From Myxococcota bacterium (GTDB lineage Bacteria; Myxococcota; XYA12-FULL-58-9; JABJBS01), in NCBI GenBank assembly GCA_036339465.1, contig JAYZAY010000043.1, forward strand, positions 2,833 through 66,832: a stretch of DNA of 64,000 nt. Reading direction: 5' to 3'. The notes beneath the pieces are model-generated. The model saw nothing but the letters and a program-made list of their open reading frames with translations. It ran no database searches and was not told the DNA's origin. The position numbers and the translations under genes are program-made. Position 1 is the first letter of the stretch. Each line of letters starts with the position of its first letter. Below, in pieces: positions 19,118 through 47,745 of this stretch.

Positions 19118-19711
19118 TCACGCCCCCCCTAACCATAACTTACCTCCCACACAACGTTCAATTCCCCCCTCGGTCACCACCGCATCCATCCCTATATCGC
19201 CCTCATCTACAGGAAGCTCAGACCATACCTGTAAGTCGTAACCAAACCCCAGTTTATAACCCCCATAGTTCGCTAAAGTACGGTCAAAATAGCCTCCCCC
19301 ATACCCTAGACGCGTACCACAGGTGGTAAAAGCCACCCCAGGTACCACAATCGCCTCGATCGAGGTCAAAGCAGCAACTTCCGTACCCCGGGGTTCCAAA
19401 ATACCAAAGTTGCCCTTAATCAACTCATCATGGTCGGCAAAGGCGACAAAATCCAATGGCAATCCCACCCCCTTAATACGGGGTAAAAAGAGGGCGGTCC
19501 CCTGAGCCAAGCACAAAGAAGCCAGCGGAAAAACATCGACTTCGCCCCGAATCGCCGCATAAATGCCAAGAGAATTTAAGTTGAGGTCTTCAATTAGATT
19601 TGCCAAATTCTCTCGAGCTGTCGCACCAAAACGGTGCCGCTCTGCTTCGGTAAGGGCACTTCGCCTTCTAAGAGCTTCTTTGCGGACATCCGATTTGATC
19701 CTGGCCGCCAT
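19118..19711 (-). CDS. 5-formyltetrahydrofolate cyclo-ligase
   Basis: RLGYGGGYFDR motif. The proposed start MAARIKSDVRKEAL gives about 198 aa, the normal family size. The ORF track extends it to 19876. Confidence 0.8.
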   Translation of the reverse strand: MAARIKSDVRKEALRRRSALTEAERHRFGATARENLANLIEDLNLNSLGIYAAIRGEVDVFPLASLCLAQGTALFLPRIKGVGLPLDFVAFADHDELIKGNFGILEPRGTEVAALTSIEAIVVPGVAFTTCGTRLGYGGGYFDRTLANYGGYKLGFGYDLQVWSELPVDEGDIGMDAVVTEGGIERCVGGKLWLGGA

Positions 19712-20069
19712 AATGATTGGGAGTCCCATCCACACCGACGAGGGTGTAATACCAAGAATGCGGTCCCCGCCCAATGGCGGGCCAACAGGTTCTGAACCTG
19801 GAATCCCAGGTGGGTACGGCCTCTGGAGTTTTAGGCTTCTCGGTTGCATATAGCCCGAGCTTGCACACCACTCCACGAACAGCCATTCCCGTAATCTTAA
19901 AGTGTTGGTTCACGCACGCTCTTGGTAAACCACACACTGGGCAGGGCCGCAAAATCAAACCAAGGGGGGTTCACACCTTTCCTTGATCATCACACCAAAT
20001 AGTCGCCCACAAACATTGTCTCGTCAATCAATTAAGTGGTGGGATAAATTTGTGGTCATGTAATAGTTC

Positions 20070-20499: not shown

Positions 20500-21453
20500 C
20501 TATCGAGGCCTACCCTTGAGATATTCGGGGCCATCATCCTCAACCTCAACTTCCTCCTTCTCTATTTCCGGTCTTAGAACCTCCCTCAATATTTCCGTAT
20601 CTCGTTTGGTGGCATCGTCCACCGTTTCGAGGGTTCTCGGCATCACGTCCCGTTGATCAATAACGATCTCCACCCGCCGATTTCTAGCGCGGCCAGTCGA
20701 TGTCTTATTCTCCCCCAAAGGTCTTGTGGCACCATGACCATTGAGAACGAAACGCGCTGGAGACAAGACTTGCTCTTTCAATAGCGCATGGATTACCGAA
20801 AAGGCCCGCGACCCGGAGAGCTCCCAGTTCGACCTAAACCGCTTACTTTTCATGGGGGTATTGTCCGTATGCCCCGACACCGAAATCGCCCCCTCTATTT
20901 TCGCCAGTGCATCCCTAAGCCGTTTCGCCACCGGCATGAATTGCTGCTTTAGGTCGGCACTCCCTGCCGAAAACGAGCCACTTTGTAGAATTCGTACCGT
21001 GATCATACGCTCGCGAACTTCCAGCTCAATCTGGCGCCTCATAATCTCGGGCTTCAATAGTTTCTTGAGTTTGTCAGCATCGATGACGGTTTTCTTTTGT
21101 AGCTCTTTCTCCAATGCATCAGCCTGGGTCAATATATCGTCCACACTCAAGTCCTGCAAAGCTGACTGCGGAGGTGCACCCAACCCCTTGGCCAATCCCT
21201 CCGCCATGGCCTTGAATTTTTCGACATCGATGGTCGCCATACTTAAAAGCATGACGAAAAAACACATGAGCAGCGACATCAAGTCGGCGAAGGTTGTGAC
21301 CCACATGGGGGCACCGGGATCCGCCTCTTTTTCAAGAGGACTCTCGGGCTCTTCATCGCCATGGTCACCACCACGTGAAGGAGCCTCTCCTTTTGGGGGA
21401 GGGCTTTGCTCTGGCTCCTTCTCGGTGAGCGCTTTATCCTCTTGTTCTGCCAA
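20500..21453 (-). CDS. motB: MotB-family stator/OmpA-like protein, paralogue 1, with an acidic N-terminal extension
   Basis: MotB plug/TM motif PMWVTTFADLMSLLMCFFVMLLSMA with the conserved Asp. C-terminal OmpA-like peptidoglycan-binding domain (SGHTDNTPM...NRRVEIVI). About 48 aa of E/P-rich sequence precede the TM. Confidence 0.8.
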   Translation of the reverse strand: MAEQEDKALTEKEPEQSPPPKGEAPSRGGDHGDEEPESPLEKEADPGAPMWVTTFADLMSLLMCFFVMLLSMATIDVEKFKAMAEGLAKGLGAPPQSALQDLSVDDILTQADALEKELQKKTVIDADKLKKLLKPEIMRRQIELEVRERMITVRILQSGSFSAGSADLKQQFMPVAKRLRDALAKIEGAISVSGHTDNTPMKSKRFRSNWELSGSRAFSVIHALLKEQVLSPARFVLNGHGATRPLGENKTSTGRARNRRVEIVIDQRDVMPRTLETVDDATKRDTEILREVLRPEIEKEEVEVEDDGPEYLKGRPR

Positions 21454-21633
21454 TGGAATACCGTTTCCTCTAAAAGCTTTGTTCCTTAATTATTCACAAA
21501 ATACCATCGCAAAACCAAGCATGTCCTTTAGTTCTTGCATTTTCGTCCAATTGAGAGACATATCAAAAGAAGCGTGCGTTTCGGACAACAATGAACCTCA
21601 ATACCCCTACACCCAAGCGATGATCGTTTAAGC

Positions 21634-22689
21634 ATGACTTCAATACCGGGAAATCCTAAGGGGACCGATTCTGGCGAAGGTGAAAATACCCCTTCGGGGG
21701 AATCGGTCCAAAACAATTCAGGGACAAATTCCGACCCGACAAAACCAAACTCAGCCCCCGAAACACCCAAGCGCGGCATCTCCGTGGAAGAGGCGCAAGC
21801 TCTTGCCGCTCCGACACCTCCCAACGATGACGACGACGACGATGAAGAGCCCCCAGGTCCCCCACGCGAGGACGAAGGAGGCGGCGCCCCTCGCTGGGTG
21901 ACAACCTTCGCCGACTTGATGTCGCTCCTCATGTGTTTTTTCGTCATGCTCGTCGCATCGGCCAACCTGGAAAAAACCACCTTCAAAGAAATGGTCGAAT
22001 CCATGCACGAAGGCTTCGGAATTTCAGATTCCAAAAAGATGGAAGAATTTACCATCACCGATGTGCTATCCCAAGCCGACCTCCTCAAGGCAGCCAAACA
22101 GGAAAAATCCCGTAAACAAGCCGCCAAACTTAGGGAGGTTTTGAAACGCGAGATCGTTGAGGGCAAAATTGAGGTAGAAAGCGGCGTCGAAAAAATAACC
22201 ATCCAAGTACTCTCTGCAAGTTCCTTTAGCTCCGGCTCCGCCAACCTCAAATCGGGCTTTAAACCTGTGGCCAAAAAGATCCGAGAATCTCTCATCAATA
22301 TACCCGGGGTCATCACCATATCGGGTCACACAGACAACACCCCCATCCACTCAAGAAAGATTCGTTCAAACTGGGAATTGTCATCAGCACGGGCCTTCTC
22401 CGTCATGCACGAGCTACAAAAAAGTCAGAAGCTTCCAGCCGACCGATTTATATTAAGAGGCTATGCCGACACTCGCCCCAGAGTGCCAAACAATTCAGCT
22501 GCCAATCGGTCCAAGAATCGCCGAGTTGAGATTATGGTCGATCAAAGAGAGAGCTCACAACAGCCAGGCGCCCATGGCCAAAAACAAGACGGAGAAACCA
22601 AGCCAGAAAAGGAACCGATCATCATCAACGCCGACACAATGGAACAATTTGAGAACGAGACCATCCACAAACTCTTGGAGGAGAAATAG
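21634..22689 (+). CDS. motB: MotB-family stator/OmpA-like protein, paralogue 2, with a long disordered acidic N-terminal extension
   Basis: APRWVTTFADLMSLLMCFFVMLVASA, then SGHTDNTPIHSRKIRSNWELSSARAF and NRRVEIMV. About 90 aa of low-complexity sequence (DDDDDDEEPPGPPREDEGGG) precede the TM. Confidence 0.8.
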   Translation: MTSIPGNPKGTDSGEGENTPSGESVQNNSGTNSDPTKPNSAPETPKRGISVEEAQALAAPTPPNDDDDDDEEPPGPPREDEGGGAPRWVTTFADLMSLLMCFFVMLVASANLEKTTFKEMVESMHEGFGISDSKKMEEFTITDVLSQADLLKAAKQEKSRKQAAKLREVLKREIVEGKIEVESGVEKITIQVLSASSFSSGSANLKSGFKPVAKKIRESLINIPGVITISGHTDNTPIHSRKIRSNWELSSARAFSVMHELQKSQKLPADRFILRGYADTRPRVPNNSAANRSKNRRVEIMVDQRESSQQPGAHGQKQDGETKPEKEPIIINADTMEQFENETIHKLLEEK

Positions 22690-22712: not shown

Positions 22713-25442
22713 CTATTCCACATCCCATACTCGGATAATTCGGTCTGCCCCACCCGAGTAAAGAAGCTTACCCCCAGGTTCAAACCTCACAGCCATCACC
22801 GACCCCTGATGACCGGTATATTTAGCAACCTCGACGCCAGTGGCGACCCGCCAGATGCGCACAGTGCCATCATCGGATCCTGTGGCCAACAAAACACCAT
22901 CGGATGAAAAGTCCACCGCTCTAACCCCGCCCGTGTGTCCAAAAATATTCCGAATTAAACTGCCTTTTTTCCCGTTCCAAAGCCTTAAGGACAAATCGAA
23001 ACCAGCACTGGCCACCGTGAGACTCTTTTTTCGTGGGGAAAATGCTAGTTCCGAAATCACGTGCTTATGTTTCTCCAAACGATGAGTGATGTCTCCCGAA
23101 CCAGCCCTAACCACAACCACTTCCTTATCCGTAGCCAAGGCAAAAAATCGGCCATTCGCAGAACTGGCCACGCTTCGAACCGGCTTCTTAAAGCGTATCA
23201 TCTCCTTACGTAATACCCCTGACTTGGCCCCCCAAACTAAGACTCGACCTTCCTTATCCACAGAAACCAAAGACCGGCCATCTCGACTAAAGGCAACCCC
23301 GTAAACCCAATCATCATGTTCTGCGAGTTCGTGTTTCTCAGACCAATCCTCCGCCGACCAAACCTTGATGGTTTTGTCTCGACTACCTGAAGCGAGTAGA
23401 GAACCATCCTTATTCACAACCAGATCTTCAATCGCACCTGTGTGCCCACCAAGCTCCTCAATTGCTTTCCCGCTTTTGACATCCCAAACTTTAATATTTC
23501 CGCCCAAGTCGCCGGTCGCAATCTTTTGCCCTCCAAGCGCCACCATCGCTGTAATACCTTCTTCGTGACCCTTCAAACGCATACGCTCTTGACTTAGCTG
23601 AACGTCCCAAACCCGTATACGGTCGTCGAGACCGGCCGAGAGGACCAACTTATTATCTGACGAAACATCCAGCCCAATAACACCCTGCTTATGGGCCCGT
23701 AACACCCTTAGAATCTTTTTCTCATTGACATCCCAAACTCGGATAGTCCAATCATTGCTGGCCGACAAGAGAACGCTATCCCCTGCGGCAAATTTGAGAC
23801 GCGTTACGACATCTTCATGCCCTTCTAAGCGATGCAATAACTTCGTCCCCTCCTTATTAAAGAGATAGATATAATTGCCGCCAGCAACAGCCAACAGGTC
23901 AAGCTCACTGGCCCACTCCATGGCTTCAACAACCCCCCTATTGAACGGAATTTTCTTGAATTGCTCCCCCGATTCCGTTTTCCACCAGGCAAAGCTCTGG
24001 TCCCAACTTCCGGTCCCTATATAAGCATCATCCGGAGAAAAGCTGAGGGCTCGGATATCCCGTTTGTGCGCTTGCTTGGCCCAAATCATTTTCTCTTTTT
24101 CAATCAAATATAGCGCTAATTTTCCATCGAGCCCTGAGGCGACAAAACGCGTACCATCGTGACTAAAGGCCAAGCCAATCACACCTGAACCAGGAAACGC
24201 ATATCTCCGCACAACTCTCAGGGTTTCCAAATCCCAAAGCCGAATATACTTACCTCGGTCTGAGGAAACCAGGAAGCGTCCTTCACGATCCGCAGCCACC
24301 GCTAACACCTCATCCAGATGGCCTGCAAGAGTCTCCTGATGCTCAAGTTTACGATTCCACAGCTCAATCCGGTCCCCCGAACAGGAAACCACCCATTGTC
24401 TTTTTGGGACCCATGTCGCACATCGAACCGCACCCCTATGCTTATAGCTGAAGCTCCGAGGTAAGATATCCATATCCCAAACAAGAACTTGATTCTTAAA
24501 TGAAGCCGTCACCGCTTGTTTTCGACGGCGATTCATCGCCCCAACCATCGCGGCTTCTCCCACGAAAAAGAGTCCCCGCTCCTCTCCAGTCCGAACATTC
24601 CAATAACGAATGGTTTGGTCACCCGAGAGAGAGAAAAACGTCTGACGGCTCTTCATCCACCCCAGGGAAAGGACCTCTCCCAAATGCTCTTCAATACGGT
24701 AATTTCTCTCCGGACGCCCCATATAGTGGAGATTAATGTTGGCGTCCCAGCCCGCCGAAATCACGAGGTCACGAGACGGCTCGTATAACACGGAAGAAAC
24801 CACTCCTTCATGGGGACTCCAGCGCTCCAAAACCTTAAGCTTATCAATGTTTATCCTCAATACCGCCCCTTGGTCAGTTCCCACCAACATCCAATCCCTA
24901 CCTTTAACGAATTCGACCACCGTCGCCGCATGCCCCGAAGGCAGCCGGACCTTCTTTAAAAGTCGTCCCTTCCAGCTCCATAGCCTAAGCTCGCCTTCAC
25001 GCCCCCCAGAAACCAAACGATTTTCCGACACAAACTCGACCGAGGTTACCGCCCCACGGTGCTGGCCCATTTGCACTTTAAGTTTGCCGTTTTCCCAAAA
25101 CCAAATCCGAATTGCGCCATCAAAGGCACCCGTGGCAACGAATCTTTCGTTGGGAGAGATTGCCATCGACACCACCCCGCCCAGGTTCCCTTCGATAATC
25201 CGTTCTAATTTTCCGGTTCTCCGGTTCCAAACACGCAATTGTCCAGTTGAACCGCCGCTGATAATATTGCGATCGCGATTCAGCAACGAGACCACTCGAA
25301 TGGTCCCCTTATGCCCCTTTAGCTTCAGTGTTGGCTGCCCAGACCGCTGTCCAAACACGCCGGCGGGTAAGCAAATCAAGAGCAAGCAAAAAATAAGTAA
25401 TGAACTCCGCACCACAACCCCCAAAAAACACTCCCCAAGCAT
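22713..25442 (-). CDS. Secreted WD40-repeat protein (about 20 WD repeats, likely three beta-propellers)
   Basis: N-terminal signal peptide MLGECFLGVVVRSSLLIFCLLLICLPAGVFGQ. Reiterated GH..V..V.FS.DG..L.SGS.D.T.R.WD units across 909 aa. Confidence 0.85.
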   Translation of the reverse strand: MLGECFLGVVVRSSLLIFCLLLICLPAGVFGQRSGQPTLKLKGHKGTIRVVSLLNRDRNIISGGSTGQLRVWNRRTGKLERIIEGNLGGVVSMAISPNERFVATGAFDGAIRIWFWENGKLKVQMGQHRGAVTSVEFVSENRLVSGGREGELRLWSWKGRLLKKVRLPSGHAATVVEFVKGRDWMLVGTDQGAVLRINIDKLKVLERWSPHEGVVSSVLYEPSRDLVISAGWDANINLHYMGRPERNYRIEEHLGEVLSLGWMKSRQTFFSLSGDQTIRYWNVRTGEERGLFFVGEAAMVGAMNRRRKQAVTASFKNQVLVWDMDILPRSFSYKHRGAVRCATWVPKRQWVVSCSGDRIELWNRKLEHQETLAGHLDEVLAVAADREGRFLVSSDRGKYIRLWDLETLRVVRRYAFPGSGVIGLAFSHDGTRFVASGLDGKLALYLIEKEKMIWAKQAHKRDIRALSFSPDDAYIGTGSWDQSFAWWKTESGEQFKKIPFNRGVVEAMEWASELDLLAVAGGNYIYLFNKEGTKLLHRLEGHEDVVTRLKFAAGDSVLLSASNDWTIRVWDVNEKKILRVLRAHKQGVIGLDVSSDNKLVLSAGLDDRIRVWDVQLSQERMRLKGHEEGITAMVALGGQKIATGDLGGNIKVWDVKSGKAIEELGGHTGAIEDLVVNKDGSLLASGSRDKTIKVWSAEDWSEKHELAEHDDWVYGVAFSRDGRSLVSVDKEGRVLVWGAKSGVLRKEMIRFKKPVRSVASSANGRFFALATDKEVVVVRAGSGDITHRLEKHKHVISELAFSPRKKSLTVASAGFDLSLRLWNGKKGSLIRNIFGHTGGVRAVDFSSDGVLLATGSDDGTVRIWRVATGVEVAKYTGHQGSVMAVRFEPGGKLLYSGGADRIIRVWDVE

Positions 25443-25526: not shown

Positions 25527-26720
25527 TTGGCTTCAAAAGAAAAATCGATAAAACCGACTATTTTGTGTGTCGACGACGAAATCGCCGTCCTCGAAGGCCT
25601 TCAACTGAATCTCCGGCGAGCGGGAACTGTCCATACCGCCACCAGCGGAAAAGAAGGCCTAGAACGCATCTCCAACAGCGAGAAGCCCTTCGCGATCATT
25701 ATTTCCGATATGCGAATGCCCGAAATGAATGGCGCCGAATTTCTCCAACACGCCCGCCAAATAAGCCCCAATTCGGTTCGAATTCTGCTCACCGGACAAA
25801 CCGAAATAGAATCTGCGATTTCTGCCGTCAACGATGGTGGCATCTTCTGCTACCTCCAAAAGCCCTGCCCCAAAGAAAAACTTTTGGAAATCATCGAGGA
25901 GTCCACCAAAGAATTTCAACTTCGAGAAGAAGAAAGAGAAATTCTCGAGCAAACACTTTGGTCGAGCGTCAGCGTCATGTCCGAGATTCTTGGAGTCGTC
26001 AACGAAGCCGCGTTTGGGCATGCCGAACTCATGCGCGTCGTGGTCCTTCATCTCGCCAAAAGCCTCGCGTTGGAGAACGTCTATGAATTCGAATTAGCAG
26101 CCATGCTCTCACAGCTAGGATGCATGGGAATGCCTAGTGAGAGCATCGAAAAGATCCACACGCCTTCCCAAATGACAAGAGAAGAACAAGAAGCCTATCG
26201 CCAACACCCCAAGATAGGCCAAGAATTGCTTGAAAAAATACCTCGACTTGAAGACGTGGCCCTTATGATCGGAAACCAGTTCCGGAAATTCCCCCCCGTG
26301 GAATTGGACCAGCCGGTTTATCTCGAAAACCGGAGGGTCTTGGGCGCAAAAATGCTTCGAATAGCTGTCGATGTCAGCCGATGGCTCGCCAGCGGCAAAA
26401 CCCTACCCGAAATCCAAGACCGAATAGACGGCCGACCACAAAATTACGACACGCGACTTATTGAGGCCCTTAGGAGCCTCAAGCTTCCGAAACCCAAGAA
26501 AGTATTACAGATGCTCAACGTCGACGAAATTGGTGTGGGCATGGAACTCGCGGCCGTCGTGGAAACCATCACCGGAACACGGGTTTTCCTCCCAGGTAAA
26601 ATCGTGACTCCCTTGGCAATAGAAAGGCTGATTCGCTTTCACCAAGGCGTCGGTATCAAAGAACCACTCAGAGTGTTGGCGCCGCCACCAAAAGCTTCAC
26701 CAAAATTGATTCAAACTTAG
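25527..26720 (+). CDS. Response regulator: REC domain plus degenerate (probably catalytically inactive) HD-GYP domain
   Basis: REC: ILCVDDE...IISDMRMPEMNG...KPC. The C-terminal domain aligns to HD-GYP architecture (HPKIGQELL, AKMLRIAVDVSRW), but HD is replaced by SQ (LSQLGCMG) and the HHExxDGSGYP block is absent (GNQFRKFPP). Confidence 0.7.
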   Translation: MASKEKSIKPTILCVDDEIAVLEGLQLNLRRAGTVHTATSGKEGLERISNSEKPFAIIISDMRMPEMNGAEFLQHARQISPNSVRILLTGQTEIESAISAVNDGGIFCYLQKPCPKEKLLEIIEESTKEFQLREEEREILEQTLWSSVSVMSEILGVVNEAAFGHAELMRVVVLHLAKSLALENVYEFELAAMLSQLGCMGMPSESIEKIHTPSQMTREEQEAYRQHPKIGQELLEKIPRLEDVALMIGNQFRKFPPVELDQPVYLENRRVLGAKMLRIAVDVSRWLASGKTLPEIQDRIDGRPQNYDTRLIEALRSLKLPKPKKVLQMLNVDEIGVGMELAAVVETITGTRVFLPGKIVTPLAIERLIRFHQGVGIKEPLRVLAPPPKASPKLIQT

Positions 26721-26815: not shown

Positions 26816-27583
26816 GTGCCAGATTACGCAACTCTTATTGGGCTTGTAGGCTCCTTTGCCATTGTGGGAATGGCAATTATGCAAGGTGAAGGCGGACTCA
26901 TGCTCTTCATCAACGTGCCTTCCCTCCTCATCGTCATTGTAGGGAGTATCTTCGTCGCACTTATGAAATTCGGCCTCAAGCAGTTCTTAGGTGCCATCGG
27001 CGTAGCTCTGAAGGCTTTCTTCTTCAAACTTGAACAACCTACCGATCTAATCGAACAAGCCGTTAACCTTGCCAACAAGGCCCGAAAAGAAGGCATCATC
27101 TCCCTTGAAGAAGAAACCATCACCAATGGCTTCCTGCAAAAGGGCGTTGAATTTCTAGTAGATAATGTAGATGGCAAGGTTATCAAAACCACCCTCTACA
27201 AAGAAATGAATCAAGCCATGGAGCGCCATGACGGAGGTATCAAGATATTCAAAGCCATCGGCGACGTGGGCCCTGCAATGGGAATGATTGGTACACTTGT
27301 GGGACTCGTACAAATGCTCGCGGCCATGGACGATCCGAAAACCATCGGCCCCGCAATGGCGGTAGCACTCCTAACAACCCTTTATGGCGCGATACTCGGT
27401 AATATGTTCGCCTTACCTATCGCCGATAAATTGACCCTCAGAAATCAAGAGGAGCGAATTGTTAAGTTACTCCTAATCGACACAATCCTAGCGATCCAAG
27501 CTGAACTCCACCCCAGAGTTTTGGAAGAATCTCTTCAGCCCTATCTCGCTGAGTCGAAGCGGAAGAAAGAAGAGGAAAAGTAA
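26816..27583 (+). CDS. motA: MotA/PomA-family flagellar stator protein (MotA/TolQ/ExbB superfamily)
   Basis: AIGDVGPAMGMIGTLVGLVQML and AVALLTTLYGAILGNMFALPIADKL motifs. 4-TM topology. SD ggagga 8 nt before GTG 26816. The ORF track ATG at 26780 lacks an RBS. Confidence 0.85.
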   Translation: MPDYATLIGLVGSFAIVGMAIMQGEGGLMLFINVPSLLIVIVGSIFVALMKFGLKQFLGAIGVALKAFFFKLEQPTDLIEQAVNLANKARKEGIISLEEETITNGFLQKGVEFLVDNVDGKVIKTTLYKEMNQAMERHDGGIKIFKAIGDVGPAMGMIGTLVGLVQMLAAMDDPKTIGPAMAVALLTTLYGAILGNMFALPIADKLTLRNQEERIVKLLLIDTILAIQAELHPRVLEESLQPYLAESKRKKEEEK

Positions 27584-27589
27584 TTACTC

Positions 27590-28411
27590 ATGACCGATGA
27601 AACAGACATCGAGACACCTCCATCAAGTTCTTCCGACAATGGCGATTTCGAACAAACTCTTGAAACCGCCCATCTCGTTCTGAGAATTGTTCAAAGCGTG
27701 ATCGAAGCCCAAGCCGCGTCTCAACCCGACTCACCCAACTACTATGAAATTAGCGAAGCCGTAAACGCACTTCAAAAGACCCCGGGACTCCTAGAAAACA
27801 TTCTCAAGGGCGAGCTGCAGCCCAAGCAAGTTATCCGGTATGTTCGCGATCCCTTTGGCCGAATTATCGTCGCTCCATTCGCAAAATTATTTCAAATAGC
27901 CCCCTCCGAAAACAACGCTAAAAAAGACACACCACTTTCGAGGCGGTTTCTCCCTGGCTTTTTTGTGGCCATTCGACTGATGATTGGCGGAGACCTATAC
28001 GAAAGGCTCCATCAACAGGCACAACATATCCTTGAGGAGCACCGCCATAGATTCCCAAATCAGGACGATGAAGAGTTCTGGAAAACCATCTACAAAGATT
28101 CACGCTCACGCGAAATACAGGCAAATCTGTATTCCGTCGTTGCATCAAGATTTTCCCCCTTCGAAAAACGACTCGACTGGTTCTTAAACATCATCAATAA
28201 GAAAGCGCCTGGTTCAAAAAAAGTCAGCCAAGATACACAAGTTGAGCCCTTCGATACGAAGGCACTATTGACGGTATTTCGTGCGATTTACCTAGAAAAC
28301 GATCCGCAAACCCTCAAGGGGCACTTTGACGAGTTTCTCAAAACAAATCCGCTACAACCAGAACAATCAGAAACATTTCACGGTTGGATCGACCACCTAC
28401 GAAACATCTGA
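27590..28411 (+). CDS. Hypothetical soluble protein (273 aa) in the position normally held by MotB
   Basis: Begins 7 bp after the motA stop with SD agaggaaaag. It has no TM plug and no OmpA domain, and an acidic S/D-rich N-terminus. Confidence 0.6.
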   Translation: MTDETDIETPPSSSSDNGDFEQTLETAHLVLRIVQSVIEAQAASQPDSPNYYEISEAVNALQKTPGLLENILKGELQPKQVIRYVRDPFGRIIVAPFAKLFQIAPSENNAKKDTPLSRRFLPGFFVAIRLMIGGDLYERLHQQAQHILEEHRHRFPNQDDEEFWKTIYKDSRSREIQANLYSVVASRFSPFEKRLDWFLNIINKKAPGSKKVSQDTQVEPFDTKALLTVFRAIYLENDPQTLKGHFDEFLKTNPLQPEQSETFHGWIDHLRNI

Positions 28412-28416
28412 CCCAT

Positions 28417-29652
28417 TTAGGTGCGAAACTCAGCCGCCATACGTTGTATTTGCAAAGTATTAGAGATGATTGTTTGAGCCGCAGTCTCAGCCCGATTAAC
28501 GGCGTCAACAGTCTGCTCAACCGCTCCCGCCACCTGGGAAATACTATCTGCAATCTCCGTCGTACCACCCGCCGCTTCATGTAGATGGCGCCCCATTTCC
28601 TGAGCCGTAACGGTCTGTTCCTGAACCGAACTGGCAATGGTCGTTTGGTATTCATTCACTTGAGTAATGATCTCCATAATTTGGCCAATGGCAGTCACCG
28701 CCCCATCCATGTCCGATTGGATTGCGGTAATCTGTAGCGTAATGGATTCAGTTGCCTTGGTGGTTTCTTTGGCGAGCTCCTTCACCTCGTTGGCAACAAC
28801 CGCAAAGCCCTTACCCGCTTCACCGGCACGCGCGGCCTCAATCGTCGCATTGAGCGCGAGGAGGTTTGTTTGTTCCGCAATGCTCCCAATAACCTTAACC
28901 ACCGATCCCACTTCTTTACTGGTGACATCTAGCTTACTGACCATCGCTGTGGTTGTCTCGGCAATATCCACTGCAGATTGCGCCACCTTCGATGCTTGAC
29001 GAGCATTGGCGGCAATCTCCTTAATATTTGAGCCCATTTCTTCCACACCCACCGCCACAGTCTGGACATTCTCACTCACCTGAGAGGCCGTCGCCGAAAG
29101 GCGACTTGTCTCCGCAGACGACGCACTGGAATCCGCGACCATTTTTTGGCTCGTTACCTGGAGCTCTCGAATTGAGCCACCCAAATTATCCTTGGAATCA
29201 TTGATTGAACCTACCAGGGTCCTAACACCCGTTAAGGCAGTACGAAGCTTCGTCGCCATCGCGCCAAACTCCGCACCAACATTTAAATCCCCTCGGCTCA
29301 AAGTATCCAAAAGAGTATCGCTCGCCCCTCCCCCTTCGGCCGCTCCTTTCATCGTCATCTTCGCCGTACCTACAATGGCACCCCAGCTGACCAAGAAAAT
29401 CCCCAGCAGAGAACCCAAGGGGACTTCCTGCCCACTGTCGTTCTTTTTACTCGAAAGCGCAGCTTCACCATCCTGAGCATCGGCATCAGTCTCCACCACC
29501 TCGGCCATTTCTGCGGGACCCGAAGAAGAAACCGAGTAACTCGCAAACACCGAAAACCCCACCGCTAACATCGAGGCCAAAGCAAGTTTCGTAAAACCAT
29601 CCGGTACCCCGCTACTCTCGCTTCCAAAATCGCTCTCTGAATCAGCAACCAT
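28417..29652 (-). CDS. Methyl-accepting chemotaxis protein with a very short periplasmic loop
   Basis: Highly conserved MCP signalling domain [35 protein letters not shown]. Two N-terminal TM helices. Confidence 0.9.
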
Positions 29653-29928
29653 TGCTTCGCCCCAGTCATCACTATGATTAAGATAAGAACACGAAATACC
29701 AACTAACTTTAACCCATCTTGGAGAACGAGTGCGAGCTTTCAGAAAAAAAGAAAGCCGATTTCCTGCGCCATGCCCTTAAATACAAGAAAGGGGGCATCA
29801 ATCTCTTGGCTCAAAGGAGAAAGACAAAGCCATATTCGCGACATCAGTGGCTATTTCGATTTAACAAGTGTATGGGGCACCGTCATTGGAGATCAGGTCA
29901 CGAATATTAGGTAATGAGAGGGCTATTC

Positions 29929-30294
29929 ATGTCAGTATCCGTCGACCCAGAGGTCATTGAAAGCCTGAAAATGCTGGCGTCTGAAGATGATCCGGATTTC
30001 TTGAAGCTTTTAATCGAAACCTATCTTGAGGACGCACAGGCGCTCTACCAACAACTCGTTGACGCATCTCAGTCGGGAGATTCAAACCTTGCCTGTCGAT
30101 TCGCCCATACCCTCAAATCCAGCAGTGCCAACATGGGCGCGATCCCCCTCGCCAACTATGCAGAATTGGTCGAGGAATCCTTGCGAACCGGTACCGATCT
30201 TCAAGCATTGGTCGATCCAATCCAAAAAATGGGCGAAGAACTCAAACTCGTGGTGAATTATCTAAGAAAAGAGCTCCATGGTACTGGTTTATAG
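29929..30294 (+). CDS. Stand-alone Hpt (histidine phosphotransfer) domain protein
   Basis: Hpt signature AHTLKSSSANMGA. SD gaggg before ATG 29929. The ORF track ATG at 29914 is a less likely start. Confidence 0.75.
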   Translation: MSVSVDPEVIESLKMLASEDDPDFLKLLIETYLEDAQALYQQLVDASQSGDSNLACRFAHTLKSSSANMGAIPLANYAELVEESLRTGTDLQALVDPIQKMGEELKLVVNYLRKELHGTGL

Positions 30295-30425
30295 AGCCAA
30301 TCAATTTTTCAGATAATCGTCATCTTTTAATCGAACTTACTTGACAGAAACGCGCCAAAATTTTAGCAACACGCTGCGCGAACCCGCCAATGTTACATCC
30401 CCTACCGGTCAAAAAGAGGTCCCTC

Positions 30426-32891
30426 ATGAATAAAACCAACCTTCTGCTCTGTTTTATACTCATCGGTTCTCAGGGAGCCTGTATTAAATGGTTTCCGGGT
30501 AAAGTAGGAAGTGGGGTGGCTCGTCTCACGGTCCGAGGCGTCGCTGCTATGTCAACCGTGGTGACCAACGACACCAAATGTGGATTTGATAGTGAAGAGG
30601 TCAAAAGCACCTATGTTCGTGAAGGCGAAGTCGGTGGCACCGGCAAAGTTATTTGGACCGTATCTAACTGTAGCATCGCGCTACCTGAGTGGGTTGAAAC
30701 CAAAACCGCATGCGACGGAGTCGTAACCCGAGCCCGTGGAAACCTGGTTATTTCCGCCCGACGCGTGGTGGAAGGGCGCCTTACGGGTAATCCAGACAAG
30801 CCCGTTGTTCCCACCGGACCAGACACCCTAAGGATAGAAATAACCGACGCCAAATTCGAAAATTTCGAAGTCGAAGACAGCTCAAGCGACAGTAAAATGA
30901 TTATGCTTGACGGGTCAATCAAGGCAGTCGCCATGCCACGTCTTGCTCGCAATATCGATGGAGTTTGCGCCATTGTAACCCCAAACGCACGCCTAGAGGA
31001 TATCCAATACAGCGATGCACTCGTACACGTATTTAGCGGCGGACGAGACTTCGACGTCGAAGTTCAGACCTCAAACATCTGGGCTCAAAATGGTAAGCAA
31101 GGAGACATCGAAAACAAATTAGGTGGAACCATCACCATCTGGGACAGTCAGCGCGACGTCCCCAACGATGGTGACCTACTCAATCCAGACTACGAAGGAG
31201 CGGAATTTTTTGATTCCTATAAGTGCACCGAAGAAATCGCCCTTCCAGAAAGTTTTGCCTGCGACTTGGAACCACGAATCGCCGATGCAGCTTCGAGCCT
31301 AACCATCCGCACCCTTGGTAATCTTATCAAATACACCAATGCCGACGAAGCTTGCGGCTTTGCCAGTCCGGAAGTGAAAGAACAATACGAAAAAGTTGGA
31401 ACAATTGGGTATGCGGATGGAACCGTTACTTGGTCGACTCAAAGGCCCTGCGAATTCAACTTCCCAGAAAAAACAGAAATTTTTGAAGACTGCTCCGGCA
31501 ACAAAACCTTCTTTAAAGGAGCTGTCACGCTTACCGGGAAAAAAGTGGTCGAGGGGATTCTAACCGGAGATCCTGAAACACCCGTAATTCCGAATTCTCA
31601 TCTACCCGCTCAGCTAAGTATCAGCGCATCCTTCAATGATTTCGAGCTTACGGTGAGCAATTCCGATAAGTCGCTTTACTATGAGTCGGGAAGTGTCTCT
31701 GGAACCCTCACCCCCCGCATGATGCTAGACAGCACAACAGGTGCTTGCAGCGTTAGTACGCCTAACGCTGGCTACTCGGAAGTCAAACTTCAAAATATCA
31801 AGGGCATCATCGATTCATCTGGCTCAAGGTTTGATATCAATATTGATAAAGCAAACCTCTACGCAGCCTCGGGGGAATACGAACCCAACTCAAACTTTCT
31901 AGACGGTACCGTAACTATCAACCGTGAAACATACCTCGTGCCCCAGAACCGAGATGACATGATTCTCGATCCAGACTACAACGTAGACATATTCAAAGCG
32001 GGTTACGACTGCCACGAAACAGCCGCCCTTCCCGAAAACAATGAAGAGTGTCAATTCGAAAACATGCTGGCCCAAAACGCTTCACGCCTCGTCATTAAGA
32101 CATTCGGCCTCATCACTAAAACCATCGACAATGATAAAGAATGTGGCTTTGGCAGCATCGACGGCCTCATCCCAGAGGGTCTCAGCAGGAATGAGCAAAA
32201 CCTCTACGACGTACAATGGGACATTAGCCGATGTGTTATCGGTGGAAGCTCCGAAGAGCTCGTTGCCACCGACTGCCATGGAAATGAGTTCTTTTTACAA
32301 GGAACTGCGGAGGTCACAGGAAGTAAGTTTGTGGAAGGAGAAGCTGCTCTGGTCTATCCACCCATTCAGCCAACTCAGCGGGAAGCAGCGATGTTTGATT
32401 TCCAAGAAATCGTGCTCAACAATTTCTCCGCCAAGGAATTCCGAAAAGACCAGGAAGACCCAGAGGCTCACCTCATTATTCACGCCGGAAAACTCGTGGG
32501 TTACTCCCACCCCGTAACCGGTGAGTCAGCATCAACCCCAGACCACTACTTCGTTAAGATTCCCGTTTCGGGATTCAGCGCCGTTCGTCTCGAAGATGCA
32601 GATGTCACCATGGTGAGTGGCAAGAAAAAATTCCGAATGCAAATCAACAGCACTCAACTTGATGCGTTCAACGGCACCCTAGGAGAAAAACACAATTCAC
32701 TCAGCGGAGAATTCACCCTTGGTGGCTCGGTGTTCAGCATCCCCGTGAATGAAAATCAGAAGCAGCTGAATCCCAACTTCGACCAAGATTATTTTGACGA
32801 TAGCTACAGGTGCCTGCCTGACCTCAAAGAGCCAGTCCCTACACCAGCTACACCAACTGACCCAGAAGCAACTTCAACCACGACCAATTGA
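30426..32891 (+). CDS. Large probable lipoprotein built from three tandem copies of a roughly 270-aa Cys-containing domain of unknown function
   Basis: Signal peptide with lipobox-like LIGSQGAC. Three repeats share T/K-(E)CGF-(D/A)S-EVK-..Y...G..G.....W......C.....PE...T.C.G......G.L.I.A..VVEG.LTG.P..PV.P. SD aagagg before ATG 30426. Confidence 0.7.
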   Translation: MNKTNLLLCFILIGSQGACIKWFPGKVGSGVARLTVRGVAAMSTVVTNDTKCGFDSEEVKSTYVREGEVGGTGKVIWTVSNCSIALPEWVETKTACDGVVTRARGNLVISARRVVEGRLTGNPDKPVVPTGPDTLRIEITDAKFENFEVEDSSSDSKMIMLDGSIKAVAMPRLARNIDGVCAIVTPNARLEDIQYSDALVHVFSGGRDFDVEVQTSNIWAQNGKQGDIENKLGGTITIWDSQRDVPNDGDLLNPDYEGAEFFDSYKCTEEIALPESFACDLEPRIADAASSLTIRTLGNLIKYTNADEACGFASPEVKEQYEKVGTIGYADGTVTWSTQRPCEFNFPEKTEIFEDCSGNKTFFKGAVTLTGKKVVEGILTGDPETPVIPNSHLPAQLSISASFNDFELTVSNSDKSLYYESGSVSGTLTPRMMLDSTTGACSVSTPNAGYSEVKLQNIKGIIDSSGSRFDINIDKANLYAASGEYEPNSNFLDGTVTINRETYLVPQNRDDMILDPDYNVDIFKAGYDCHETAALPENNEECQFENMLAQNASRLVIKTFGLITKTIDNDKECGFGSIDGLIPEGLSRNEQNLYDVQWDISRCVIGGSSEELVATDCHGNEFFLQGTAEVTGSKFVEGEAALVYPPIQPTQREAAMFDFQEIVLNNFSAKEFRKDQEDPEAHLIIHAGKLVGYSHPVTGESASTPDHYFVKIPVSGFSAVRLEDADVTMVSGKKKFRMQINSTQLDAFNGTLGEKHNSLSGEFTLGGSVFSIPVNENQKQLNPNFDQDYFDDSYRCLPDLKEPVPTPATPTDPEATSTTTN

Positions 32892-43266: not shown

Positions 43267-43495
43267 ACCCCTTAATTAAGCTCAGCTAACTTCCGGTGTC
43301 AAACAACGTGTACAGCGAGCAAACCTACTTTACAGTTGAATACACCTACATCATTGTAATTTCGAACAAAACAGATGCCATATGTAGGTAAATACACGAC
43401 AATCACTACGGAGAGGTCAGAATGTGGGTTGACAATTCGGTGCAGGACCCGACTAATTGGTATCCCACCGAAGAACGTTCGAGAGGGTACCGACT

Positions 43496-45406
43496 ATGAA
43501 ACAACCGTCCGTGCAGAAAATATTCTTAATCCTAGGATTTTGTACACTCGTTGTCCAAGGCTGTGGAGAAAAGCGTCTTACAGCAATTAACATTCCAACC
43601 AATGGCGTCCAGGAGTGTCAGGAAGACTCGGATTGTCCCGACGGATTGATCTGCGTTAATAGCGAATGCGTTGAGGTCGAGCACTTCGACTGTAAGGGCG
43701 ACGACCTCCCCATTATTTCGGTCGACCCCAGTGAACTCGATTTCGGAGAAGTCATCATTGCAACCACCACCACCAAACCAGTAACCATCACCAATGAGAG
43801 TTCCTGTAACCTTCGTCTGAGCTCCATCGGTCTAGGCAATGATACCACCGCCGGTTTCAAATGCGACCCTTGTGACATGACTCAGGAAGACATCCTTATC
43901 GCTCCACGCCGTAGTTCAGGCATCAACGTAACATACTCCCCCTTGGTTATCGGTGCCGCTTCAGGGACGTTACTCATTAAATCGGATGCCAAAAACGTTC
44001 AAAGTACAAACGGCTTCTTCGAGGTTATGTTAACTGCGCAATACAGCGGAGAACCCAAGCTCTTAGTCGAACCATCCAACCTTAATTTTGGCTATGTCCC
44101 ATTTCAAATCGGTGATACACCAAGCTCAATCACCCAAGAAGTAACCGTCAAAAACGTCGGCACCGGAAATGCGGCCCTGAAAATAGAATATATTACCCTA
44201 CCCCCTGAGCTAGGCTTTACCATTCCAGAATCCTTCGCAGACTTAGACCCATCATCGCCATTACTCCTCTCTCCTTTTAAGGAAAATGCTCCGGAAACGC
44301 TGCTGACTATTCCCGTAACCTTCACCCCTGATCTCAACAAAGAGTTTCGCGCGCGACTCCAAATTCACGCAGATTACGGCAATGGCGAAAAGGATAAGTA
44401 CCCAATTGAATTGACCGGTTCATCCCTTGGTGAGCCCGAAATTGAAGTCACTCCCAATCTCTTGGAATTCAAAGATAGAAATGATGCCCCCATGCGACTC
44501 TATCGTACCGAACAACAAACCGTCTACATTTCCAATAATGGCCAATCCATGCTCGAAATAGACCTTCTCTTGAACGATTTTGAAACCTCGGGTGACTTCG
44601 AAATATCTCCCCCCATTGTTCCGCCCATAATGCCGGGACAACGAGTCGCCGTAAGCGTATTTTATACCCCGACCCTGGTTTTCTCTCCCACTGCCGATGG
44701 TATCCTCACCATTCGCAGCAATGATACCGATGAGAATACCATCAATATAGCCCTCAAAGGTTATGCCACCACCACCGATTCTGACGACGTCCTAAAAGTG
44801 GAAATGGAGTTTACCAACAGCGGAAGTAATTGGGCCTCAGACGATTTCCGTAATGTCGATTTAAGCCTCGACAGTGAACTCGGATTCATCTGTAAAAAGC
44901 CGACATATGGTCAAGCCTCCGACAACACTCTAGCTATAACCGAAAACCCCTGCCAAGACTGGACGAACTCCGGTTCACTGGGCACGGCCACTTGGCTCTC
45001 ACTTGGAGTAAACGAAGAACCGGAAAGAGTCATTCTCTACGGCCTAGGCCAAGACCTCGCCGACCGAAAGGTGTTCAAAGTTTATACCCACTATGTCGAA
45101 GACTGTAAGCGTGTGGCCACCGGTCAGGTAGCCAATCTCGCCGGTGTTGGCGTCAGTATCCTACTAGGCATTTTGGGTGGGCAGGTTGGTGTGCCAATCA
45201 CATTACCACCAGACCAAATTAGTAGCCTCATTGAAGGTAACTGCTTCGAGCATGCCTCTAGCCAAGTGAAAGTGACCGCCTACGTCAATGACGCCGTTCT
45301 CACCACCACACAAATTGGTCTTGGAAGTAAAGGTGACCGCAAGAAGGCCATCGAGTTCTGTCGTAAAAACGGACAATTCCTCCTAGGAAGTGACGAATGC
45401 AACTAG
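43496..45406 (+). CDS. Large secreted (probably lipo)protein with reiterated ASH / choice-of-anchor-D-like beta-sandwich domains
   Basis: Signal peptide MKQPSVQKIFLILGFCTLVVQGC. Repeats follow the pattern LDFGEVIIATTTTKPVTITNES.CNLRLSSIGL....F.C.P......I.P..S..I.V.YSP...G...G.L.I.SD. SD gagagg before ATG 43496. Confidence 0.7.
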   Translation: MKQPSVQKIFLILGFCTLVVQGCGEKRLTAINIPTNGVQECQEDSDCPDGLICVNSECVEVEHFDCKGDDLPIISVDPSELDFGEVIIATTTTKPVTITNESSCNLRLSSIGLGNDTTAGFKCDPCDMTQEDILIAPRRSSGINVTYSPLVIGAASGTLLIKSDAKNVQSTNGFFEVMLTAQYSGEPKLLVEPSNLNFGYVPFQIGDTPSSITQEVTVKNVGTGNAALKIEYITLPPELGFTIPESFADLDPSSPLLLSPFKENAPETLLTIPVTFTPDLNKEFRARLQIHADYGNGEKDKYPIELTGSSLGEPEIEVTPNLLEFKDRNDAPMRLYRTEQQTVYISNNGQSMLEIDLLLNDFETSGDFEISPPIVPPIMPGQRVAVSVFYTPTLVFSPTADGILTIRSNDTDENTINIALKGYATTTDSDDVLKVEMEFTNSGSNWASDDFRNVDLSLDSELGFICKKPTYGQASDNTLAITENPCQDWTNSGSLGTATWLSLGVNEEPERVILYGLGQDLADRKVFKVYTHYVEDCKRVATGQVANLAGVGVSILLGILGGQVGVPITLPPDQISSLIEGNCFEHASSQVKVTAYVNDAVLTTTQIGLGSKGDRKKAIEFCRKNGQFLLGSDECN

Positions 45407-47745
45407 GCCAAAGAATATTCATAGCAGGAATACTTCTGGCGTTTTCCTCGGGATGCGTAACGGATCTCGAAGAGATTGATTGTTCTAAAACCCCGGACCT
45501 CGGCATCTGTAAATCCGAGGACGACAAAGCCAAAGAAGGAGAACCCAAACTTTTCGTGGATCCGCCTTTCGGGGTCGGCTTTAGCTGTGTGCTTCTAGAA
45601 TGTGATGAACAAAAAGGATTGCTCGTTGAAAACAAAGGCGGGGGCTACCTAGCCCTGAGTGAAATCTTCGTCGTATCCGAACAAGAAACCGACTTTTCAT
45701 TGCAATTTTACCAGCTCGACGAAAACGAAGAGCGCACCGAAATTGCCAAACCTGCCAAGGCAGAGCCTCTAACACTCATCAACAACCAAAAACTCTTCAT
45801 CGTTGTCTCATATCAACCCTCAGATGCAATTGAAGATATCGCGAAACTTCGAATCCGGTGGTATGACGGCAACCAAGAATATGACAACTCCGTTATTGTG
45901 GATACCGATTTTGACCTCACCGCTCGTTTTCAGGCTGTAGCGAAAGCGGAAGTCCTCACCAATGCTCTAAATTTTCCCTATACCGAGCCCACCAGCACAC
46001 ACACAGCTTACGTGGAAATCAAAAACATCAGCACCAAAGATACCATCCTGGGCGTAAACCAAATTCAATTAAGCGAAAACTCGGCCGATACGCTCTCCAT
46101 CGACCTGGGCTGGAGAGGTTACGCCAATCCCGGCGAAACCATCAAAGTACCGGTCATATTCAGCCCTACAAGTGAACAAGTCGCCGAAGGCAACTTAAGT
46201 ATCACCCTCAATGACAGACAAGAGCCATACGATATCCCAATTAAGGCAACTTCGATTACTGGAGGTAGGCTCACTCTTTTAACCCCCTTCTTACCAGAGC
46301 TGGATTTCGGGAACCTTTTCTTCAATGCCTCAAAAACCCTTTCGCTGGAAGTCCAAAATCAAGGTTCCGAAAGCATTCAGGTAACGTCAACGGTAACCAA
46401 CGGTACAGACTACTTCCACGTAATCCCACAAGAAGATTTTGTATTGGGTACCCTTGAAAAAAAGGTCGTAGAGGTGACGGTCATTGGAGCCCTAGGCGGT
46501 ACCTTGAGCGGAAATATAACTTTAAGTGCATCTGAACTTTCTGAGAATACAACAAACGCTAATGGCGACGAAACCACCAATGGGGCCACCTGTGGCGATT
46601 CGAATCCACCCATGGAAAATGATGCGGCAGGAGACCCCGAATCTGAAAATCCCGATGACCTTAGGGGCTGTGGCGAATCGCCTCTGGAACCGGATCAAGA
46701 GCCTGAAACGCCAACCGACCAAAACAGCACAGCTGGTAGTCAAGAAACGCCAACGGAGCAAGCCTCCACTGGCTTGGACGAAGACACCGCCTCCGCAGAC
46801 GAAACTCTAAATCCGACAGATATAGAAATTACATTGACCGCATCATGCGAAGCTCCCGTGGTCACCACCAACCAGGACCATATGTACTTCACACCCCAGG
46901 TCCTCGGATGGTTAGCGGAGGCACAATCCTTTAAGTTATTTAATACGGGCACCGGCCATCTTGTGATCTCAAAGATCGAGTTTGAGCTCGGGTCGTCACA
47001 CCAGATTGAGTTGGTAAACTCAAGACAACTACCAATATCAATAACCCCCGGGGACGAGCCTATGGAATTGGCGGTTCGGCTACGTGCCGGGCTTCTCGGT
47101 TCAGCCAACGCAACCCTATTGGTCACGACCAATGCTATCGACCACCCCCTCGTGCGATTACAAGTGGAGGCGTCTGTCGTTACTTGTCAAGAAGGTTGTC
47201 CAGTGGTCCATGGCACCCCCAATTGTTTTTCCGGCTCATGCCAAATAGAAAATTGCGATGACGGCTATCACGACCTCGATGCCGCCTCCACCACCGGCTG
47301 TGAATGTGCAGAAGAGAGAAACGGCCATGACATCGGAAGTTTGTGCGGAACACACCTTGAAATTCAACCCCTCTACGACCAAAGCGATAAGAAGAACAGT
47401 CACAAAGCCGTCGGGACCTTACACCATCAAGATGATGTAGACCTTTTCTTTGTTGAAACACGTGACGAATTCAACTGGTGGTCCGATGACTATGACGCCA
47501 GGGTAAGCTTGCTAGAGGCCCCAGCCGGCATGGTTCTCTGTGCAAAAATATATGCTCAGTCAGGCCTCGGCTGTACCGATAACGATGTTTTTTACGACAA
47601 TCATTGTAAGGGTGTAGGTGGGACTATTCGGGCTGAAGGTAGCTCTTTTTCAACCGACAATCATTATATTAAAGCCTGGATCATGTGGAGCCCAGGTAGC
47701 GCGCCTGTGTGTTCAAATTACGAGGTGAAATTCCAAGCAAAATAG
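45397..47745 (+). CDS. Second ASH/choice-of-anchor-D-like lipoprotein with an acidic disordered linker and a Cys-rich C-terminal domain
   Basis: Its start overlaps the stop of the previous gene (ATGCAACTAG). Lipobox AFSSGC. ASH-like repeats (LDFGNLFFNASKTLSLEVQNQGSESIQV). Linker rich in D, E, T and P. C-terminal CQEGCPVVHGTPNCFSGSCQIENCDDGYHDLD...GCEC. Confidence 0.7.
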   Translation: MQLGQRIFIAGILLAFSSGCVTDLEEIDCSKTPDLGICKSEDDKAKEGEPKLFVDPPFGVGFSCVLLECDEQKGLLVENKGGGYLALSEIFVVSEQETDFSLQFYQLDENEERTEIAKPAKAEPLTLINNQKLFIVVSYQPSDAIEDIAKLRIRWYDGNQEYDNSVIVDTDFDLTARFQAVAKAEVLTNALNFPYTEPTSTHTAYVEIKNISTKDTILGVNQIQLSENSADTLSIDLGWRGYANPGETIKVPVIFSPTSEQVAEGNLSITLNDRQEPYDIPIKATSITGGRLTLLTPFLPELDFGNLFFNASKTLSLEVQNQGSESIQVTSTVTNGTDYFHVIPQEDFVLGTLEKKVVEVTVIGALGGTLSGNITLSASELSENTTNANGDETTNGATCGDSNPPMENDAAGDPESENPDDLRGCGESPLEPDQEPETPTDQNSTAGSQETPTEQASTGLDEDTASADETLNPTDIEITLTASCEAPVVTTNQDHMYFTPQVLGWLAEAQSFKLFNTGTGHLVISKIEFELGSSHQIELVNSRQLPISITPGDEPMELAVRLRAGLLGSANATLLVTTNAIDHPLVRLQVEASVVTCQEGCPVVHGTPNCFSGSCQIENCDDGYHDLDAASTTGCECAEERNGHDIGSLCGTHLEIQPLYDQSDKKNSHKAVGTLHHQDDVDLFFVETRDEFNWWSDDYDARVSLLEAPAGMVLCAKIYAQSGLGCTDNDVFYDNHCKGVGGTIRAEGSSFSTDNHYIKAWIMWSPGSAPVCSNYEVKFQAK

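What the first reader, a model, noticed from the sequence alone, without database searches (positions are those of the whole stretch)
27590..28411. Unknown soluble protein occupies the MotB slot downstream of motA
The gene starts 7 bp after the motA stop and has a good SD, implying translational linkage. The product has no TM segment, no plug and no OmpA domain. It has an acidic S/D-rich N-terminus. This is a candidate novel stator-associated or regulatory subunit. Its stop converges 5 bp from the MCP stop.
Basis: seen in the sequence. Interest (0 to 1): 0.55.

Follow-up and report, generated by a model that had tools for sequence, protein, structure and literature searches.

The report
Unknown soluble protein partnered with PomA
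The gene after the sodium-type flagellar stator gene pomA encodes a soluble helical protein of an undescribed family that stays next to pomA in a group of marine predator-like bacteria, so it is probably a new stator accessory factor; it does not replace MotB, because two MotB genes lie 5 kb upstream.

Summary
The ORF at 27590-28411 is real and is as described. It has 273 aa, no membrane segment, no plug or OmpA domain, and an acidic N-terminus. It starts 6 nt after the pomA stop and ends 5 nt from the stop of the convergent MCP gene.

It has no Pfam, NCBIfam, PADLOC, PHROG or PDB match. A confident all-helical AlphaFold model has no Foldseek neighbour. An exhaustive search still finds 237 cluster representatives that share a conserved core.

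The "MotB slot" reading is misleading. Two PomB-like genes, both with Asp, plug and OmpA, lie at 20500-22689. The same block (pomB, pomB, WD40, REC-degenerate HD-GYP, pomA, X) recurs in other metagenomic contigs.

In nine distinct loci the close subfamily sits directly after a PomA of one clade, from a 4-nt overlap to 69 nt away, while the outer flanks differ. By contrast, 78 of the 80 closest PomA loci in reference genomes have pomB there. Distant family members, mostly alphaproteobacteria-like, are not next to motA. Some are fused to receiver domains or lie near MCP or kinase genes.

Best reading (about 0.5): X is a cytoplasmic accessory or regulatory partner of the PomA stator. No direct evidence of binding exists. 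This is a new variant of a known kind and is moderately interesting.

The parts
27590..28411 (+). Gene X: soluble all-helical protein of 273 aa from an uncharacterised family. Core motifs are PFxR..V..F..LF, LSRRxLPGFFxA..M.G, W...Y.D and F....R..WF...N.
26816..27583 (+). pomA, the sodium-type flagellar stator A subunit (255 aa from GTG 26816, with GGAGGA 7 nt upstream). It keeps the PAMGMIGT and LLTTLYG motifs that hold the Na+-site threonines.
   Evidence: role of the threonines from PMC10374538
25527..26720 (+). Response regulator: a receiver domain plus an HD_5 (HD-GYP-type) domain. The catalytic HD and HHE positions read SQ and GNQ. It is the first gene of the probable RR-pomA-X operon.
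   Evidence: the same gene precedes pomA in L093, L137 and L140
21634..22689 (+). PomB-like stator B subunit, paralogue 2 (MotB_plug + OmpA, TFADLMSLLMCFF).
20500..21453 (-). PomB-like stator B subunit, paralogue 1 (MotB_plug + OmpA, TFADLMSLLMCFF), head to head with paralogue 2.
22713..25442 (-). WD40 repeat protein of 909 aa, conserved inside the stator block.
28417..29652 (-). Methyl-accepting chemotaxis protein, convergent with X. It lies at or near this place in L013 and L140.
29914..30294 (+). Hpt phosphotransfer protein, also conserved in L140.

Best explanation
X is a real, soluble, all-helical cytoplasmic protein of an undescribed family. In a clade of marine bacteria labelled Bdellovibrionales or Myxococcota it is the last gene of a (receiver-degenerate HD-GYP)-pomA-X transcription unit. 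That unit lies in a conserved sodium-type flagellar stator locus, which also encodes two PomB paralogues and a large WD40 protein. X does not replace MotB. Most likely it is made together with PomA and acts on the cytoplasmic side of the PomA ring as an accessory or regulatory factor. Two roles are possible. It could stabilise or chaperone PomA, whose pomB partners are here transcribed separately. Or it could gate stator engagement in response to two-component or second-messenger signals. Shown: gene reality, solubility, lack of any known domain or fold, conserved adjacency to one PomA clade, and presence of PomB genes in the locus. Inferred: co-transcription, physical contact with PomA and the regulatory role.
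For: Adjacency. X-family genes lie directly downstream of motA on the same strand in the window, L009, L010 (same as L011/L012), L013, L042, L093, L095, L137 and L140 (same as L141/L142). Stop-to-start distances measured in eight of them are 6, 69, 4, 12, 34, 14, 11 and -4 nt. In L140 the called genes are 10 nt apart, and its 287-aa product is 35% identical to X. L001 begins with a MotA-like C-terminus 14 nt before X.

Divergence and flanks. The X proteins aligned here are only 21-37% identical to the window protein, or 30-35% over local BLASTP matches. Outer flanks differ between loci: pdxST and a nucleoside transporter in L010, HDOD in L009, AMP-binding in L013, L093 and L140, and PilZ-fliS-fliD in L137. 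This argues that the pair is retained rather than merely inherited.

MotA clade. The partnered MotAs are each other's nearest neighbours (56-92% identity, against 49-63% to pomAB-type PomAs). They share clade-specific residues in cytoplasmic parts: N117, E230, H232 and L236. Of the 80 closest PomA loci in GTDB genomes, 78 carry pomB downstream and 2 carry X.

Locus. The whole block pomB(-), pomB(+), WD40(-), HD_5(+), motA(+), X(+) recurs in L137 next to fliS and fliD, and in L140. This ties the block to flagella.

Signalling links. There are five distinct receiver-X fusions among about 150 representatives. Wider-family members have MCP, hybrid kinase and GGDEF neighbours. PilZ or HDOD genes lie near the pair in L009, L010 and L137.
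Against: There is no direct evidence of contact with PomA. All motA-X pairs belong to one MotA clade, so the pairs are not independent events, and shared descent explains part of the pattern. Two close-subfamily members (L094, L096) have no motA upstream. Most of the wider family, which is alphaproteobacteria-like, stands alone head to head with nadE and has no motA nearby. The conserved core therefore must do something that does not require an adjacent stator gene. No fold or sequence similarity gives any biochemical clue. No cultured organism with the pair was identified.
Confidence: 0.5

Rival explanations
1. Operon passenger. X has a cellular role unrelated to the stator, and it sits after pomA only because one ancestor of this clade had that order.
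For: The wider family is not linked to motA. In 16 loci it lies head to head with nadE, and a receiver-X fusion sits among metabolic genes. L094 and L096 have lost or never had the adjacency. All pairs fall in one MotA clade.
Against: The adjacency, with spacing of 14 nt or less or an overlap in seven of nine loci, survives while X diverges to about 21-37% identity and the outer flanks are reshuffled. A neutral neighbour would be expected to drift away, as the flanking genes did.
Confidence: 0.28
2. Signalling output module. X works in the chemotaxis or two-component pathway, for example as a partner of the degenerate HD-GYP regulator, the MCP or the Hpt protein. It affects motility only indirectly and does not bind the stator.
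For: Receiver-X fusions. An MCP gene lies directly upstream of X in L109 and L110, and hybrid kinases and protoglobin-GGDEF genes are neighbours in the wider family. The REC-HD_5 gene is conserved upstream, and MCP and Hpt downstream, in the window, L013 and L140.
Against: The tightest and most constant neighbour is pomA itself, not the regulator. In L010 and L009 the pair occurs without the REC-HD_5 gene in the sequence available.
Confidence: 0.17
3. MotB substitute. X replaces the B subunit of the stator, as the title of the finding suggests.
For: Only its position directly after motA.
Against: X has no TM helix, no conserved aspartate in a membrane segment, no plug and no peptidoglycan-binding domain. 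Two intact PomB-like genes lie in the same locus, here and in L042, L137 and L140.
Confidence: 0.02

Closest known systems
MotB/PomB (stator B subunit)
   Same: It occupies the position directly after motA/pomA that pomB holds in 78 of the 80 closest PomA loci.
   Different: X has no TM helix with Asp, no plug and no OmpA-like domain, and it is soluble and all-helical. Genuine PomB genes are present upstream.
PilZ-domain stator effectors (YcgR, MotI/DgrA, FlgZ, MotL); recalled from my own knowledge of the literature
   Same: These are soluble cytoplasmic proteins that act on MotA-type subunits to brake, declutch or modulate the motor in response to a signal. Genes related to c-di-GMP (degenerate HD-GYP, PilZ, HDOD) surround the motA-X pair.
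   Different: X has no PilZ domain, it has an all-alpha rather than beta-barrel fold, and it is encoded in the stator operon itself. Ligand binding was not tested.
FliL and MotX/MotY/FlgT (stator accessory proteins); from my own knowledge, with FliL mentioned in PMC10374538
   Same: They are lineage-variable accessory proteins that aid stator incorporation or stability and are often encoded beside stator genes.
   Different: They are membrane-anchored or periplasmic. X has no signal peptide-like or TM segment and is predicted to be cytoplasmic.
Degenerate HD-GYP response regulators such as Pseudomonas aeruginosa PA2572 (from my own knowledge); relevant to the neighbouring gene
   Same: The gene upstream of pomA is a receiver plus an HD-GYP-type domain that lacks the HD and HHE residues, and it lies near an MCP gene.
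   Different: This is not the finding itself. No orthology was tested.

Membership tests
MotB/PomB | N-terminal transmembrane helix carrying the conserved ion-binding aspartate | tested here: not met
   The highest 19-residue hydropathy mean is 1.11, so there is no TM segment. The two upstream genes do have TFADLMSLLMCFF.
MotB/PomB | Plug segment (PF13677) and OmpA-like peptidoglycan-binding domain (PF00691) | tested here: not met
   No Pfam hit at E<=0.1. None in 79 family members either.
PilZ-type stator effectors (YcgR/MotI/FlgZ) | PilZ domain (PF07238) with RxxxR and D/NxSxxG motifs | tested here: not met
   No PF07238 hit in X or in 79 relatives. The model is all-helical.
PilZ-type stator effectors (YcgR/MotI/FlgZ) | Binds c-di-GMP and MotA | not testable with these tools
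   Requires biochemistry.
Uncharacterised X family (defined here) | Core of about 125 residues with PFxR..V..F..LF, LSRRxLPGFF, W...Y.D and F....R..WF...N. Nearly invariant residues are F89, R91, F97, R118, P122, G133, W164, F188, R194 and W197. | tested here: met
Uncharacterised X family, motA-linked subfamily | Full-length similarity that includes the N-terminal helices, and a position directly downstream of a PomA of the N117/E230/H232/L236 clade | tested here: met
PomA (neighbouring gene) | NCBIfam PomA equivalog above cutoff; Na+-site threonine motifs | tested here: met
   365.7 bits against a cutoff of 341. PAMGMIGT and LLTTLYG are present. Role of the residues from PMC10374538.
Zorya ZorA/ZorB or other defence systems | Match to PADLOC models | tested here: not met
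   No PADLOC hit for X or PomA.

The most novel reading that the evidence does not exclude
X founds a new class of cytoplasmic stator-binding proteins. It docks on the PomA cytoplasmic domain and decides whether, or with which of the two PomB paralogues, the PomA ring forms an active unit. The receiver-X fusions elsewhere show that the same domain can be switched by phosphorylation. That would be a motor-control route acting at the stator rather than at the C-ring switch.
Probability: 0.2. Interest if true: 0.75.

Novelty: new variant of a known kind. Interest (0 to 1): 0.5.

Why it matters
Stator accessory and control proteins explain how bacteria tune torque, recruit stators and stop swimming. 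The known cytoplasmic ones are almost all PilZ proteins. A conserved non-PilZ protein of unknown fold encoded with pomA, in a locus with split pomA and pomB genes, two PomB paralogues, a WD40 protein and a degenerate HD-GYP regulator, would be a new way to control or assemble a sodium-type stator. It would also give a first functional handle on a protein family of at least 237 sequence clusters that no database describes.

Tried and rejected
Searches of Pfam, NCBIfam, PADLOC and PHROGs with X all found nothing. A Pfam scan of 79 relatives found only receiver domains in three of them, plus isolated weak hits.

A profile search of PDB sequences found nothing better than E=0.85. Foldseek searches of the AlphaFold model (pLDDT 83.7, pTM 0.70) against PDB and BFVD gave best E-values of 0.6 and 0.4, with TM-scores mostly at or below 0.2 and none above 0.24.

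The word-indexed homologue search found only the protein itself and one relative. The exhaustive search was needed to find the family.

The search for related loci failed three times with broad alignments because no stretch was conserved enough. It worked only with the close subfamily and with PomA.

Three literature searches found nothing on this protein or locus.

The promoter and terminator scan was not above shuffled controls, and it found no plus-strand terminator-like site between pomA and X. The Rfam scan of 19-31 kb found only a 6S RNA.

I considered modelling a PomA-X fusion. I rejected it because the tool reports no inter-domain confidence or contacts.

Full report
**1. The observation**

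The ORF 27590-28411 (+) encodes 273 aa. The upstream ORF ends with TAA at 27581-27583, so 6 nt precede the ATG. The X stop (28409-28411) lies 5 nt from the stop of the convergent MCP gene, which ends at 28417.

X has no transmembrane segment. Its highest 19-residue Kyte-Doolittle mean is 1.11, against 2.45 in PomA. It has no MotB_plug, no OmpA and no other Pfam or NCBIfam match. The first 30 residues contain 8 acidic residues, no basic residues and an SSSS run.

The only overstated point is the Shine-Dalgarno site. GAGG lies about 14 nt before the ATG, which is a fair rather than a good spacing.

The upstream gene is a bona fide PomA. The NCBIfam PomA equivalog scores 365.7 bits against a cutoff of 341. 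NCBI calls the 255-aa product PomA in a MAG labelled Myxococcota bacterium. The likely start is the GTG at 26816, behind a GGAGGA. PomA keeps the PAMGMIGT and LLTTLYG stretches, which hold the threonines reported as conserved in all sodium-driven stators (PMC10374538).

**2. MotB is not missing**

Two PomB-like genes lie head to head at 20500-21453 (-) and 21634-22689 (+). Both have MotB_plug and OmpA domains. Both score just under the cutoff of the NCBIfam MotB subfamily model: 239 and 244 bits against 259. They are 50% identical to each other, and both carry the TFADLMSLLMCFF helix with the aspartate.

A 909-aa WD40 protein (-) and a receiver-HD_5 regulator (+) lie between these genes and pomA. 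The rest of the window holds housekeeping genes and no other flagellar genes.

**3. What X is**

The word-indexed search found only the protein itself and one 36%-identical marine relative. The exhaustive phmmer search found 237 cluster representatives at E<=1e-3.

The alignment shows a conserved core at residues about 85-210. Its motifs are PFxR..V..F..LF, LSRRxLPGFFxA..M.G, W...Y.D and F....R..WF...N. Nearly invariant residues are F89, R91, F97, R118, P122, G133, W164, F188, R194 and W197.

No member has a Pfam family for this core. Three of 79 members scanned with Pfam have an N-terminal receiver domain, and five distinct representatives among about 150 do. A profile search of PDB sequences found nothing.

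AlphaFold2 with the 79-sequence alignment gives a confident model of 12 helices, with pLDDT 83.7 and pTM 0.70. Foldseek finds no neighbour in PDB or BFVD. The best E-values are 0.6 and 0.4, and TM-scores are mostly at or below 0.2, with none above 0.24. PADLOC and PHROGs are also negative.

X is therefore a member of an undescribed family with no recognisable fold relative in the libraries available.

**4. Genomic linkage**

Close, full-length relatives of X lie directly after a motA gene on the same strand in:
- L009;
- L010, L011 and L012;
- L013, labelled uncultured Bdellovibrionales, and L042, labelled Myxococcota DS_MAG40;
- L093 and L095;
- L137;
- L140, L141 and L142.

The stop-to-start distances measured in eight pairs are 6, 69, 4, 12, 34, 14, 11 and -4 nt. 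In L140 the called genes are 10 nt apart. The short contig L001 begins with a MotA-like C-terminus 14 nt before its X gene.

The X proteins aligned here are only 21-37% identical to the window protein, or 30-35% over local BLASTP matches. Their MotAs are 56-92% identical to one another, and each one's nearest neighbours are other X-linked MotAs. Identity to pomAB-type PomAs is 49-63%. The X-linked MotAs also share clade-specific residues in cytoplasmic regions: N117, E230, H232 and L236.

Of the 80 closest PomA loci in one-genome-per-species GTDB contigs, 78 have pomB directly downstream. The two exceptions are the X-carrying loci L013 and L042.

The larger block is also conserved:
- L137 has pomB(-), pomB(+), WD40(-), HD_5(+), motA(+), X(+), followed by PilZ, fliS and fliD.
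- L140 has 5-FTHF cyclo-ligase, pomB(-), pomB(+), WD40(-), pentapeptide, REC-HD_5, motA, X, AMP-binding, MCP(-) and Hpt.
- L042 has pomB(-), pomB(+), motA, X with nothing between them.

Outer flanks differ among loci. L010 has pdxST and a nucleoside transporter, L009 has HDOD, and L013, L093 and L140 have AMP-binding. The pair has therefore been kept while its surroundings changed.

There are exceptions. L094 and L096 carry close-subfamily X genes without motA upstream.

**5. The wider family**

Distant members are mostly longer proteins with Pro/Ala-rich N-termini, and one of them is annotated Rhodospirillaceae. They stand alone, head to head with nadE and near cysS, in 16 loci. One receiver-X fusion sits among metabolic genes. 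In other loci an MCP gene lies directly upstream (L109, L110), or hybrid kinases and protoglobin-GGDEF genes lie nearby. The core domain therefore has a function that does not require an adjacent stator gene, and it recurs in signalling neighbourhoods.

**6. Interpretation**

The reading of X as a MotB replacement is rejected. The best-supported reading is that X is a cytoplasmic accessory or regulatory factor of this PomA-type stator. It is probably co-transcribed with pomA and the degenerate HD-GYP regulator.

Two concrete mechanisms fit. In the first, X stabilises or chaperones PomA, because here pomA is uncoupled from its two pomB partners. In the second, X gates stator engagement under signalling control, by analogy with the PilZ effectors. 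Both mechanisms are inferences. Nothing here shows contact with PomA.

The main rival is that X is a passenger gene retained by descent within one clade. A second rival is that X is a signalling component that acts on the regulator, MCP or Hpt proteins rather than on the stator.

**7. Novelty and score**

Stator accessory proteins are a known kind. What appears undescribed is this family, its fold, and this locus architecture: split pomA and pomB, two PomB paralogues, a WD40 protein and a degenerate HD-GYP regulator. No database model and no paper in three searches covers it.

The evidence is genomic only and comes from uncultured marine bacteria. I rate it a new variant of a known kind, with interest about 0.5.

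Noticed in passing
window 20500-21453 (-) and 21634-22689 (+): Two head-to-head PomB-like paralogues, 50% identical, both with plug, OmpA domain and the TM aspartate. They serve a single pomA that is encoded separately. The same pair occurs in L042, L137 and L140. One A subunit with two B subunits suggests alternative stator compositions.
   Followed up: partly
window 22713-25442 (-): A 909-aa WD40 repeat protein sits inside the stator block between pomB and the regulator. It is conserved at that place in L137 (937 aa) and L140 (908 aa). Its role is unknown.
   Followed up: partly
window 25527-26720 (+): A response regulator with a receiver domain and an HD_5 (HD-GYP-type) domain. Where active enzymes carry HD and HHE (from my own knowledge), it reads SQ and GNQ in all four orthologues aligned. 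It is probably non-catalytic and may be a sensor or adaptor.
   Followed up: partly
window 19760-19950 (-): A 6S RNA (RF00013, 81 bits) lies just upstream of the 5-formyltetrahydrofolate cyclo-ligase gene, which is the classic ssrS-ygfA arrangement. The long ORF 19118-19876 overlaps the RNA, so its start is probably over-extended. The Pfam match begins at residue 61.
   Followed up: partly
window 30390-32891 (+): An 833-aa protein with no Pfam or NCBIfam hit follows the Hpt gene. The sequence appears to contain internal repeats (seen by eye only). At the equivalent position L140 encodes a protein of 4237 aa.
   Followed up: no
window 43457-47745 (+): Two large proteins with Ig-like domains of the eukaryote-type Cep192/HYDIN/ASH families.
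   Followed up: no
L138 7001-8212; also P0011, P0016, P0061, P0088, P0146: These are fusions of a receiver domain to the X-family core. They suggest that the core can act as a phosphorylation-controlled output domain.
   Followed up: partly
L109, L110 (X at about 5397-6479 and 4562-5644): In these wider-family loci an MCP gene lies directly upstream of X on the same strand. This is a second link of the family to chemotaxis genes, independent of motA.
   Followed up: partly
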